Positions 34,101 to 37,100 of a stretch of DNA of 64,000 nt are shown one piece after another (position 1 is the stretch's first letter; each line of letters opens with the position of its first letter). Source of the stretch: Escherichia coli (lineage in GTDB: Bacteria; Pseudomonadota; Gammaproteobacteria; Enterobacterales; Enterobacteriaceae); assembly GCF_044647545.1 (NCBI RefSeq), contig NZ_CP172818.1, one strand, 5' to 3'. Made by a program: the position numbers.

Positions 34101-37100
34101 GGCACCAATAAAAAGTGGTCTGAAGATCACGCCCATCGTGTGCTAAAAAGTCTTGAAGATAATCTTTTTGCAGCGCTTGGTGAACGTAATATCGCTGAGT
34201 TAAAAACTCGAGCCCCCCCCCCCTCCAGTGTCTCCCCGTGTGGCCGGGACCCCCCCAAGACCCACAGCTGACCGGGGATGACGTCTCCCCGTTCCCGCCA
34301 GTCCCCCTTCCCTCACCGGCCCCCCCGACTCCCCCCCGCCCGCGAACCCACGCCTGCCGCGAAAACAGGATGAACCCCAAAAGCCGTGAAAGACGGCAAA
34401 AAGGACCCCCCCGCCCGGGGGGGGAGTAAGCGCACCGGCCCGGGCGCGGCGCCCCCCGCAACCGGCGGGGGCCGCCCAGCGCCCGGCGGACTCCCTACAC
34501 CACGACGCCCCGGCGCGGGGGCGCCCCGACGCGAACGGGTGCCGCGACGCCAAACGTCCGGCCCCGACCGCGACGAAAACCGCGACCGCCACGAAACGGC
34601 ACACACAGGCGAAACACAGCGGCCGACGCGGCGCGGACGGGAGGGCGGCCCCGCGGCCGCGGGCACGCACGGGGCACCCGCGCCAACGGAACAGACAGGC
34701 CCGCCCCGACCCCCCCGGGGGCGCGGCGCACCGGGCAGAAACCCCCCCCGGGGGCAACCGAACGCGGGCCGGATCGCAGCCGAACAACGCCCCCCCAACC
34801 CCCCCCCCCCCCGGGTGTTCCTTTAACCATCCGCAATGGCCAACGGTTTACAGAGCATAATACGAATAGCCGTAGAGCCAGCCAGTTACGGTGGTCGCGA
34901 TGGTGTGTCCGCCAGAAAATCACCACGAATACCAGAATCGCGGCACTGACCAGAAAATGATAAACAGGAAACACGGGGAGGTTCACTTTGCTTTCTCCTG
35001 TAGTATTTTCTGTAGGTTCTGAACCGGTTCGAGCGGGGTTGTGAGGCTGATGGCAATCCCCGGGCTCTTCCTGCATGTTACACTGGTACTGCAACAGGGG
35101 GCCTTCGCTCCTATGACATTACTCAGTATTTTCACTACTACACCCCATCTGCCATCCATAACAACCGATTCACCCCCTCGGGAGGCGTTGTTGCCCGTCA
35201 CCCGGACAGGCATCGTTATGGACTTCTCTTGTTGCACGATCGATCAATTGTTATGCATGCTGACACCACTACCCCGGTGGGTATGACCGATGCCTTTCTC
35301 ACTCTCTTCCCGGTCATCGTCGGCCTTCCCCGTTATTGTGGCGTGTCGGCACCATCGACGGCATTTCGATGGCTGCTCAGTGTTCACTCACGTTACGGCC
35401 CGCATAACCCATTGACTTCCTGAAGAAGTCGTTTCAGGGAGAGATTCAGCCCTTTTGTTACCTCCTGGACCGCTTCCTGTCCTTCCAGTTGGAGCGAGAG
35501 TTAGTCGGGGCGGACTTTCACCGACGGAAAGATCGTGCATTTCAAGGCACACACAACAATATCTGCGAGCGTGCTATCCGTCCGGTCGTTATGGGACGAA
35601 AGGCCTGGTTGTTCGCTGGTTCACTGATGGCCGGGAACCGAGCGGCACAGATAATGAGCCTTCTGGAAACAGCAGTCTGGAGCCACATGCTTGGCTGACG
35701 GACGTCCTAACGCGTCTGCCCGGAGTGGCCGGAGGAGAGGTTGGCAGAGTTACTGCCTCTTGAGGGCTTTACCTTCTTTGGGTAAGTGATACCTGCCGTC
35801 AGGTGTTTGTGCACCGGGCCATAACCTGCAGTTGGGAATTGAACGCCTGACAACAGGAAATGAGCTAGAGCAGTAAACACGCGGGCTGACAATGGGTCAG
35901 AATATGAGTCTGCCCGGCGTTATTCTTGGGGTCAGTACTTCAGATCCAGCCTCCGGTACCAGACTAGCTAGCCCCTACGCAACCAAATAAATCAACCATC
36001 GTAAGAGTGCAATCGTTCATATACACTGCCGGTGATGGGCGGAAAAATGCGTTAATGTTGAGTTCCTCGAACCCTTACCAATTAAGGGACATAGCCAGAT
36101 ACGCAACTGGCTGATGCAAGCAGTCTGATGTCTTTAGATTCGCTGGCCTGCGGGCATGACAATGTCAAACAGTCAAAGATTGTGGCGTTGACGGTCAGTC
36201 TCGGTGGTCGAAAAAGCTCAGTATTCTCGTTGGCAACCAGATAATTTAACAGTTGATGCTGAAACGAAATAGGCATCTTGGTTCTGTAATGCCAGTCAGT
36301 TAAGCAACTGACTGGCTCTTTTTCGGGGCTGTGGGGTATTTCCAGGGCCTCTCCTTTACCACTCTCGGGAAGGCCCTTTCCCTTCTTGTCGGTAATTTCA
36401 CAAGTTGTCCCATACTTGCAAGATCGCGCATCAGCTCCGGTATACGTCCCGGTGAAGCGCCCTGCAATGTCATCAGCATTCTCATCACCATTCCGCATGA
36501 TTCTGAGAAACTCAGTTGATTCGGCCAGTAACCTTTCAGATGTTCCGCCATTTTAATCATCTGATATCTCACCAGATTATAAGCCAGTAAGACACCCCGC
36601 AGCTCTTGCTCCACAAGCTCCGGTTTTTTACTTCTCAGCGTCAGCCTGCTCAGTTGCATCGTCTGTTTTATCTCCCTGTATCCCAGTTCGATTTCCCAGC
36701 GATGACTGTACAGATCCGCCATTTCTCCTCCGGGGAAGCGCATGGCGTCCGTCATCGACGTCAGCAGATGGCAGACTTTTCCTTTGCGCGTCACGGTCAG
36801 CAGGCGGGCTGTCACTTCATTTCCCAGTCCCGGCCACTTTTTTCGTGCCTGCGGGCTGGTTTTCAGCTTCACCAGATGATCGCCTTTACCCAGTTTTCTG
36901 ATCTCTTCATATTGCGCTCCCTTTCTGAGAGGTATCATCCAGTGGCGGTGTTCTCCCGCCAGGCTCCAGGCATTTAACAGTCCCAGTGAGTAATAACCTT
37001 TATCCATTAACGTCAGAGTGTTATCGCCGGTTTGTTCTATAAGTTGCTCAGCAAGCTCATTTTCGCTGTTCTTCATCGTGCCGAAGGCTGCAGCCGTCAG

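What the first reader, a model, noticed from the sequence alone, without database searches (positions are those of the whole stretch)
35455..35800. Frameshifted IS66-family transposase remnant next to IS4
Only the C-terminal ~100 codons of a TnpC-like protein are recognisable, split across two frames. No tnpA/tnpB or inverted repeats are seen, so this is a decayed element. It marks an older insertion layer beneath the IS4.
Basis: partly seen in the sequence, partly recalled or inferred. Interest (0 to 1): 0.25.

Follow-up and report, generated by a model that had tools for sequence, protein, structure and literature searches.

The report
IS66 stub beside group II intron fossil
The reported stretch is a dead 3' end of an IS66-family insertion sequence, and it stops exactly where a group II intron (a self-splicing mobile RNA element, itself now only a stump) once inserted into the transposase gene; it is an ordinary genomic fossil, but it explains the E. 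coli "hypothetical gene" yjgZ.

Summary
The IS66 call is right, but its coordinates and anatomy need correcting.

- **IS66 remnant:** true IS66 homology runs from 35553 to 36078 on the + strand. It holds the last 79 residue positions of a 527-aa TnpC (92% identical once the frameshifts are repaired), the 3' non-coding region and a recognisable right inverted repeat (36051-36078).
- **Frameshifts:** a 10-bp deletion at 35674|35675 and an extra C at 35719-35721 split the coding remnant across two frames.
- **Missing parts:** no tnpA, tnpB or left end exists anywhere in the window.
- **Left 100 bp of the finding (35455-35552):** this is not IS66. It is the antisense of nt 1-568 of a group II intron (minus strand, 35552->34986). 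Rfam RF02003 scores 66 bits there, E 7e-14.
- **Left border of the remnant:** it is the intron's 5' splice junction (…TTGTTGT|GTGTGCC…), in the conserved DNN codons of tnpC. Full-length relatives sit at the same site, antisense, in IS66 copies of many bacteria.
- **Later deletion:** a deletion then removed the rest of the intron, most of the IS66 and the 5' end of yjgX.
- **yjgZ:** the ORF at 35455-35763 (K-12 yjgZ) is a chimeric artefact.
- **IS4:** IS4 (36287-37712) lies 208 bp beyond the IS66 end and arrived later.

Ordinary fossil; low interest.

The parts
35553..36078 (+). 3'-terminal remnant (526 bp) of an IS66-family insertion sequence: tnpC 3' end, 3' non-coding region and right inverted repeat
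   Evidence: It is colinear at about 83-85% DNA identity with intact IS66-family copies (L005, L008, L009) from 35553 to the shared terminus ...TTAC; all flanks diverge after that point.
35553..35785 (+). tnpC' pseudogene: last 79 residue positions of a 527-aa TnpC (about 77 codons left) plus the TAA stop at 35783-35785
   Evidence: Pfam PF03050 and PF13817 both score above their cut-offs. BLASTP gives 73/79 identical to TnpC residues 449-527; tblastn E 2e-28. PGAP annotates the orthologous stretch as a frameshifted, N-terminally missing 'transposase domain-containing protein'.
35674..35675 (+). Site of a 10-bp deletion (AAACGTAATG in intact copies); first frameshift
   Evidence: Alignments A1, A2 and A4. 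The deletion is shared with the K-12-like L001 and with L002, and is absent from the E. albertii plasmid orthologue L003.
35719..35721 (+). CCC run carrying one extra C relative to every comparator; second frameshift, specific to this window
   Evidence: Alignments A1 and A4. It could be a real mutation or a homopolymer sequencing error.
35792..35857 (+). Hairpin just after the tnpC stop, conserved in intact IS66 copies
   Evidence: Inverted repeat in L005, L008 and L009 (17 nt, 94% complementary). The window version folds at -26.5 kcal/mol, z -2.0. Function unknown.
36051..36078 (+). Right terminal inverted repeat of the IS66-family element (reverse complement GTAAGGGTTCGAGGAACTCAACATTAAC)
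   Evidence: It aligns to the terminal repeats of the intact 2772-bp copy L009 1117-3888, which has an 8-bp target duplication TATCTGCG: 20/27 to the left repeat.
34986..35552 (-). 5' fragment (nt 1-568, domains I to about III, no ORF) of a group II intron; its 5' end GTGTG abuts the IS66 remnant
   Evidence: It is colinear with full-length introns: L006 at 89.8% over 579 bp and L007 at 75.8%. The junction ...TTGTTGT|GTGTGCCTTG is shared with L003, L006 and L007. Only nt 1-568 are present in 1608 E. coli genomes.
35388..35527 (-). Match to Rfam RF02003 (group-II-D1D4-4), full model length
   Evidence: 66.3 bits against a gathering score of 49, E 6.9e-14. It is the only group II hit in the window.
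35455..35763 (+). 102-aa ORF, the yjgZ equivalent (109 aa in the K-12-like L001): a chimeric, spurious reading frame
   Evidence: Its codons read, in order, the antisense of the intron, then tnpC out of frame, and only about 14 codons (36 in K-12) in the TnpC frame. Pfam finds only a sub-threshold PF13817 match.
34816..34971 (-). Upper end of the 5'-truncated yjgX (phosphoethanolamine transferase) pseudogene; the far side of the deletion junction
   Evidence: PGAP annotation of the orthologous loci L001 and L002 reads 'missing N-terminus'. Colinearity is shown.
36287..37712 (-). IS4 (1426 bp) with 12-bp target duplications ATCTTGGTTCTG at 36275-36286 and 37713-37724; context only, a later insertion
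   Evidence: ORF of 448 aa, insG annotation, empty site in L002, element ends read directly.

Best explanation
The locus is a two-layer fossil of mobile DNA with no present function.

1. (Inferred) An IS66-family element of about 2.75 kb (tnpA-tnpB-tnpC, + strand) sat in the leuX island next to yjgX.
2. (Shown by comparison) An endonuclease-less group II intron retrohomed into the antisense strand of its tnpC, between the first and second bases of the Asp codon of the conserved ...LP(I/L) D N N x x E R A I R P... motif (exon ...TTGTTGT | intron GTGTGCC...). This interrupts the transposase gene. Because the intron is antisense, it cannot be spliced out of the tnpC mRNA.
3. (Inferred from the junctions) A single deletion then removed everything from intron nt 569 through the tnpC 5' part, tnpB, tnpA, the left inverted repeat and the 5' end of yjgX. 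It left 568 nt of intron and 526 bp of IS66 3' end with its right inverted repeat.
4. (Shown) A 10-bp deletion in the tnpC remnant created the yjgZ reading frame seen in K-12.
5. (Shown) IS4 later inserted 208 bp to the right in some lineages, and this window's lineage gained one more C.

Nothing here can transpose, splice or encode a meaningful protein.
For: **IS66 identity and extent:**

**Intron identity:**
- Rfam RF02003 scores above its gathering score.
- The fragment is colinear with full-length introns that have RF02003, an RT/maturase ORF and RF00029 (domains V-VI).
- The 5' end is GTGTG.

**Same insertion site in other loci:**
- In L007 a complete intron (4508-6503, GUGUG...CUAC) splits an IS66 tnpC exactly at LPI|DNN, antisense.
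- The junction is the same in L003 and L006, whose exon sequences differ.
- An 18-mer junction scan of 100,044 species genomes gave 46 hits. Of these, 23 have the intron 5' end, and 18 of those have a significant IS66 TnpC C-terminus in the antisense 5' exon. Three more look IS66-like by eye. About 22 hits are chance.

**Deletion:**
- The intron stops at nt 568 in all 1608 E. coli genomes that carry it.
- It is followed within 15 bp by a yjgX that PGAP calls N-terminally truncated.

**Order of events:**
- The E. albertii plasmid orthologue has the junction but neither frameshift.
- The K-12-like L001 and L002 have the 10-bp deletion only.
- L002 lacks IS4.
Against: - No genome was found that keeps the undeleted ancestral state at this locus, so steps 1 and 3 rest on inference.
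- The left IS66 end and the target duplication are gone, so in-situ transposition cannot be told apart from arrival as part of the island.
- Pairing between the intron's exon-binding sites and the target was not demonstrated. My one EBS1 candidate did not hold up.
- Retrohoming of this intron lineage has not been tested experimentally.
- Eleven bases at the junction (ACAACAATATC) are conserved because of protein constraint, so the exact breakpoint relies on the intron's GTGTG start and on L007.
Confidence: 0.85

Rival explanations
1. An IS66 element was simply eroded by random deletions and frameshifts, and its left edge is an arbitrary breakpoint. The sequence up to 35455 would be further degenerate tnpC.
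For: Frameshifts and loss of tnpA and tnpB are real. Translation of 35455-35552 gives ORFs that a reader could take for degenerate protein.
Against: - Homology to intact IS66 stops abruptly at 35553.
- The adjoining 568 nt match a group II intron by covariance model and by colinearity.
- The same breakpoint recurs in unrelated bacteria next to the same intron.
Confidence: 0.08
2. yjgZ (35455-35763) is a genuine small protein-coding gene, a domesticated IS66 C-terminal domain, as in the K-12 'uncharacterized protein' annotation.
For: - A 109-aa ORF is intact in K-12-like strains.
- It appears in transcriptome gene lists and among K-12 hypothetical proteins.
- Its last 36 residues carry the IS66 C-terminal motif.
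Against: - Two thirds of the ORF read antisense intron and out-of-frame tnpC.
- It starts with TTG.
- The ORF exists only because of a 10-bp deletion.
- It is broken again in this window.
- PGAP treats the locus as a pseudogene.
Confidence: 0.04
3. The intron-plus-exon piece did not arise here. A fragment already made of the intron 5' end and the IS66 3' end was brought in by recombination or with the island, so there was never a complete IS66 at this site.
For: - An independent, differently truncated copy of the same junction sits on an E. albertii plasmid.
- The left end and the target duplication are missing here, so in-situ transposition cannot be shown.
Against: The remnant ends precisely at the IS66 terminus (…TTAC) rather than inside or beyond it, as expected for an element that entered by transposition. 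This does not exclude import of a larger segment.
Confidence: 0.15

Closest known systems
The roughly 2.74-2.77-kb IS66-family element of E. coli and Shigella (tnpA-tnpB-tnpC; intact in L008 and L009; a 3' fragment is annotated 'ISSfl4 ORF3' on pCP301)
   Same: - About 83-85% DNA identity from tnpC codon 448 to the right terminus.
- 92% protein identity over the last 79 residues.
- The same post-stop hairpin.
- The same GTAA... terminal repeat.
   Different: - Only 19% of the element is left.
- There are two frameshifting indels.
- It lacks a repeat unit of about 40-70 bp in the 3' non-coding region.
- There is no tnpA, tnpB or left repeat, and none of the catalytic region survives.
Full-length group II introns of Enterobacter pECC18A13-1 (L006), Klebsiella indica (L032, L033) and an Azotobacter salinestris plasmid (L007)
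   Same: - Same 5' end, GUGUGCCUUG...
- Same RF02003-type domain I.
- Same homing site in the antisense strand of IS66 tnpC.
- 76-90% identity over nt 1-568.
   Different: The window copy lacks nt 569 to the end, that is the RT/maturase ORF and domains V-VI. No RF00029 or IEP hit is found in the window.
Sr.md.I1 of Sinorhizobium medicae (class D, IIB3; related to RmInt1)
   Same: It is a mobile, endonuclease-less bacterial group II intron reported inside an ORF annotated as an IS66 transposase, and it homes with a lagging-strand bias (PMC4615759).
   Different: - The IEP of the lineage found here ends ...YLYEKLGLIRLVPPARDRSNAKA and lacks the class D motif LX3AX3PXLF[V/A]HW.
- No Sinorhizobium hits appeared in the DNA search.
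- Whether Sr.md.I1 uses the same tnpC position or orientation could not be checked, because the figure is not held.
E.c.I4-tr1, the known group II intron fragment of E. coli K-12 (CP4-6 prophage)
   Same: It is a dead group II intron fragment tied to an insertion-sequence transposase homing site and shared by K-12 strains (PMC3522654).
   Different: - It is a different intron, locus and host element (IS3-like).
- That survey listed only one fragment for MG1655, so the yjgZ-side fragment, which has no ORF, was not among its results.

Membership tests
IS66-family insertion sequence | DDE transposase TnpC (Pfam PF03050 with the C-terminal element PF13817) | tested here: inconclusive
   Both models score above their cut-offs, but only profile positions 255-282 of 284 of PF03050 are present. 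The catalytic region is missing. It derives from the family but is not a functional member.
IS66-family insertion sequence | Accessory genes tnpA and tnpB upstream of tnpC | tested here: not met
   tblastn with TnpA and TnpB of the intact copy L008 finds nothing in the 64-kb window.
IS66-family insertion sequence | Terminal inverted repeats starting 5'-GTAA... | tested here: met
   The right repeat at 36051-36078 (reverse complement GTAAGGGTTCGAGGAACTC...) matches the left repeat of L009 at 20/27. All copies diverge right after ...TTAC. The left repeat is absent.
IS66-family insertion sequence | 8-bp target-site duplication | not testable with these tools
   The left end is deleted. The intact relative L009 shows an 8-bp duplication, TATCTGCG.
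Group II intron | 5' boundary consensus GUGYG | tested here: met
   The minus strand reads GTGTGCCTTG starting at 35552, identical to the start of the full-length relatives.
Group II intron | Domain I sequence and structure | tested here: met
   RF02003 scores 66.3 bits against a gathering score of 49, full model length. Colinear over 568 nt with L006 and L007.
Group II intron | Catalytic domain V and branch-site domain VI | tested here: not met
   No RF00029 match in the window. It is present in L006 and L007. The window therefore holds a fragment, not an intron.
Group II intron | Intron-encoded RT/maturase in domain IV | tested here: not met
   tblastn with the L007 IEP finds nothing in the window. 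The relatives encode RVT_1 plus GIIM without an endonuclease domain.
Bacterial class D (IIB3) group II introns (RmInt1, Sr.md.I1) | C-terminal IEP motif LX3AX3PXLF[V/A]HW | tested here: not met
   The motif as given in PMC4615759 is not present in the L007 IEP C-terminus. The ORF class of this lineage remains undetermined.

The most novel reading that the evidence does not exclude
The intron stump belongs to a phylogenetically broad lineage of endonuclease-less group II introns. The lineage spans Gamma-, Beta- and Alphaproteobacteria and some Acidobacteria and Planctomycetes MAGs. It specialises in one site, the antisense strand of the conserved DNN codons of IS66 tnpC, so it acts as a parasite that disables IS66 elements. 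I found no description of it in the held papers. E. coli keeps only a single unannotated fossil of it, in about 30% of complete genomes including K-12. A weaker add-on: the IS66 3' non-coding remnant may have been co-opted as the roughly 300-nt Hfq-binding RNA 'ig-yjgZ-insG' reported in K-12.
Probability: 0.3. Interest if true: 0.4.

Novelty: new member of a known kind. Interest (0 to 1): 0.25.

Why it matters
It matters mainly for annotation.

- **yjgZ:** K-12 yjgZ, still listed among about 95 'hypothetical proteins' (PMC12356324), is explained as an accidental ORF. It runs across an antisense group II intron stump and an out-of-frame IS66 tnpC tail.
- **Unannotated intron fragment:** RefSeq records label the IS66 part as a transposase pseudogene. 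They leave the 568-nt intron fragment unannotated in about 1600 complete genomes.
- **Intron-IS biology:** the locus is a clean example of nested mobile elements (intron inside an insertion sequence, then a deletion, then IS4 nearby). It points to an intron lineage that homes to a protein-constrained site of IS66 transposase genes, which is relevant to intron-IS population dynamics and possibly to choosing targetron target sites.

It changes nothing about cell physiology.

Tried and rejected
- **Inverted-repeat search on L005:** it gave no terminal repeats because that copy is truncated on the left. This was solved by comparing L008 with L009.
- **TCAGTACTTC repeats as the IS end:** rejected. 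Homology continues about 140 bp further, to ...TTAC.
- **EBS1 candidate GCAACAACG in intron domain I:** rejected. The segment is conserved as CAACGAC across introns and does not covary with the exon.
- **Class D membership:** rejected on the IEP C-terminal motif.
- **Promoter and terminator scan of 35300-36320:** nothing above shuffle expectation.
- **Post-stop hairpin:** only a marginal z-score of -2.0.
- **T-poor block 34213-34815:** no match to the reference loci, even after stripping T from them. Left unexplained.
- **Supplement look-ups:** none is held for the Hfq RNA coordinates. The Enterobacteriales intron survey lists only the CP4-6 fragment for MG1655.
- **Literature search linking group II introns with KpLE2, yjgX or leuX:** nothing relevant in the held library.

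Full report
**Context.** The window is the leuX island (KpLE2 region) of an Escherichia coli chromosome. In order it holds:
- ahr/yjgB;
- a tRNA (33512-33593);
- the 5' part of the P4-type integrase gene intB;
- an odd T-poor block;
- the top of the yjgX pseudogene;
- the region of the finding;
- IS4;
- nanX.

The stretch 34816-36300 is present at 80% coverage or more in 1529 of 5426 complete E. coli genomes. The best identities are 97.7-99%.

- Frame 2 of the + strand reads ...NNICERAIRPVVMGRKAWLFAGSLMAGNRAAQIMSLLETA. Frame 1 continues with SLEPHAWLTDVLTRLP, and frame 2 ends with EWPEERLAELLPLEGFTFFG*.
- Pfam gives PF03050 (DDE_Tnp_IS66) at 32.1 bits, but only for profile positions 255-282 of 284.
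- After joining the frames, PF13817 (IS66 C-terminal element) scores 41.4 bits. Both are above the curated cut-offs.
- The joined peptide is 73/79 identical to residues 449-527 of an intact 527-aa TnpC.
- tblastn with an intact TnpC hits only 35555-35782, E 2e-28. TnpA and TnpB hit nothing in the 64-kb window.
- PGAP annotates the orthologous stretch in reference genomes as a frameshifted 'transposase domain-containing protein' lacking its N-terminus.
- InterPro-based literature already calls K-12 yjgZ a putative IS66 transposase.

**Extent of the IS66 remnant.** DNA alignment with intact IS66-family copies shows homology switching on abruptly at 35553 (…ACAACAATATCTGCGAGCG…). It continues past the stop codon (TAA, 35783-35785) through the whole 3' non-coding region.
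- Comparing two intact chromosomal copies defined the element. L009 1117-3888 is 2772 bp, with 27-nt terminal repeats GTAATGTTCCGGGGAACTCATCTTCAC / …GGAATATTAC and an 8-bp target duplication TATCTGCG.
- The window, L005, L008 and L009 stay aligned up to a common …TTAC and diverge completely afterwards.
- The window's right repeat is therefore 36051-36078, 20/27 matches to the left repeat.
- The remnant is 35553-36078 (526 bp), not 35455-35800. The statement that no inverted repeat is visible is wrong.

**The frameshifts.** Relative to intact copies there is a 10-bp deletion (AAACGTAATG) at 35674|35675 and one extra C in the run 35719-35721.
- The deletion is shared with a K-12-like genome (L001) and an IS4-free avian strain (L002).
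- The extra C is found only in this window and could be a homopolymer sequencing error.
- An orthologous copy on an E. albertii plasmid (L003) has neither change.

**What lies to the left.** The first 100 bp of the reported interval are not IS66.
- On the minus strand, 35388-35527 matches Rfam RF02003 (group II intron, domains I-IV type 4) over the full model. It scores 66.3 bits against a gathering score of 49, E 6.9e-14. This is the only group II hit in the window.
- The minus strand from 35552 down to 34986 is colinear with nt 1-568 of full-length introns. The Enterobacter plasmid L006 matches at 89.8% and the Azotobacter plasmid L007 at 75.8%.
- Those full-length introns carry the same RF02003 domain, an RT/maturase ORF (RVT_1 plus GIIM, no endonuclease domain) and a domain V-VI match, RF00029.
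- The intron strand begins GTGTGCCTTG…, the GUGYG consensus, directly against the IS66 remnant: …GCAGATATTGTTGT|GTGTGCCTTG.

**The left border is an intron homing site.** In L007 a complete intron (4508-6503, GUGUG…CUAC) interrupts an otherwise readable IS66 tnpC on the opposite strand. The upstream ORF ends …AGYLPI and the downstream piece starts (D)NNRAERAIRP… Joining the exons restores LPI-D-N-N.
- L003 and L006 have different exon sequences but the same junction.
- I scanned one genome per species (100,044 species) for the 18-mer RTTRTTGT|GTGTGCCTTG and got 46 matches. I estimate about 35 would be expected by chance.
- Of the 46, 23 have real intron 5' homology. Of those, 18 have a statistically significant IS66 TnpC C-terminus encoded antisense in the 5' exon. 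Three more show the NNxxExxIRP start by eye, and 22 matches have neither feature.
- The truncation of the IS66 at 35553 is therefore the footprint of site-specific intron insertion into the conserved DNN codons, always antisense to tnpC. It is not a random break.

**The deletion.** In all 1608 complete E. coli genomes that carry the intron, only nt 1-568 are present.
- The fragment is always chromosomal.
- It is essentially never annotated: the listed records show no feature, or in one case a hypothetical protein.
- No E. coli genome has a full-length copy at megablast sensitivity.
- The fragment ends within 15 bp of a yjgX pseudogene that PGAP describes as missing its N-terminus.
- The simplest history is one deletion running from inside the intron, across the tnpC 5' part, tnpB, tnpA and the left repeat, into yjgX. 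This step is inferred, because no undeleted ancestor was found.

**yjgZ.** The ORF 35455-35763 (102 aa here, 109 aa in the K-12-like L001) starts with TTG inside the antisense intron.
- It then crosses the junction and reads tnpC out of frame.
- It enters the true TnpC frame only after the 10-bp deletion.
- It is an accidental ORF. A 2025 study still lists yjgZ among uncharacterised K-12 proteins with no regulator or GO assignment.

**Relation to IS4.** IS4 occupies 36287-37712 with 12-bp duplications ATCTTGGTTCTG. That is 208 bp beyond the IS66 terminus. L002 and other strains have the empty site with the same fossil. The fossil is therefore older than the IS4, but the IS4 is not inserted in it.

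**Comparison with known systems.**
- Group II introns commonly home into insertion sequences. Sr.md.I1 of S. medicae (class D) is reported inside an IS66 transposase ORF, and endonuclease-less introns of that class use lagging-strand priming (PMC4615759).
- The lineage found here has an endonuclease-less IEP but lacks the class D C-terminal motif. Its class is undetermined.
- A survey of Enterobacteriales introns listed a single fragment for MG1655, E.c.I4-tr1 in CP4-6. The ORF-less fragment described here was not among its results.
- I found no paper in the held library linking a group II intron with this locus. That does not prove it has never been noted.

**Verdict.** The finding is a real but ordinary decayed IS66 remnant, already flagged by standard annotation. 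Its coordinates, its size (about 77 codons) and the inverted-repeat claim need correction. The added value is the recognition of the adjacent group II intron stump, which explains both the position of the truncation and the yjgZ ORF. Novelty: a new member of known kinds. Interest is low to modest.

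Noticed in passing
window 34213-34815: A 603-bp block with 78% G+C and only 26 T (4%), with long C and G homopolymers; it is the only such block in the window. 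It replaces about 2.2-3.5 kb present in the reference strains (the rest of intB, with or without IS2, and most of yjgX). It has no blastn match to the reference loci, even after stripping T from them. It looks like an assembly or base-calling artefact, but this is unproven.
   Followed up: partly
window about 35786-36286 (between the yjgZ equivalent and IS4): Bilusic et al. 2014 (PMC4152368) verified a roughly 300-nt Hfq-binding, Hfq-stabilised RNA 'ig-yjgZ-insG' in K-12. That interval is the IS66 3' non-coding remnant plus its right repeat and 208 bp of flank. The strand and ends could not be checked because no supplement is held. The promoter and terminator scan found nothing notable.
   Followed up: partly
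L007 (Azotobacter salinestris plasmid NZ_CP045303) 2626-6503: One IS66 tnpC carries two different group II introns a few codons apart. An RF02003-type intron lies on one strand (4508-6503). An RF01999-type intron with its own ltrA lies on the other strand (about 2626-4375). The second cuts the tnpC tail after ...GRKNWL.
   Followed up: partly
L035 (MAG 'Collinsella sp.' contig JAIJJM010000556.1, 2205 bp): The contig carries the E. coli-type junction and the frameshifted tnpC tail (…LLETAVWSHM). Over the stretches I compared it matches the window: the first 60 nt of the intron and the first 45 translated exon codons. This suggests E. coli contamination of that actinobacterial MAG.
   Followed up: no
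window 35938 region; L004, L008, L009 3' non-coding regions: The IS66 3' non-coding region holds a variable number of units of about 32-40 bp containing TCAGTRCTTC. The window has one, L005 and L008 have two, and L009 and L004 have three. Their meaning is unknown.
   Followed up: partly
window 9593-9708 and 27377-27571: The whole-window Rfam scan also found a Mg2+ riboswitch-type element (RF01056, 125.8 bits) and a match to Yersinia sRNA Ysr276 (RF02850, 184.6 bits). Both are unrelated to the finding.
   Followed up: no
L003 (E. albertii plasmid pEA5_1) 3440-4437: This is an independent, differently truncated copy of the same intron-in-IS66 junction. It keeps about 126 codons of the RT ORF, has an internal deletion of about 84 bp in intron domain I, and its IS66 part stops about 22 bp after the tnpC stop. 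No frameshifts are present.
   Followed up: partly
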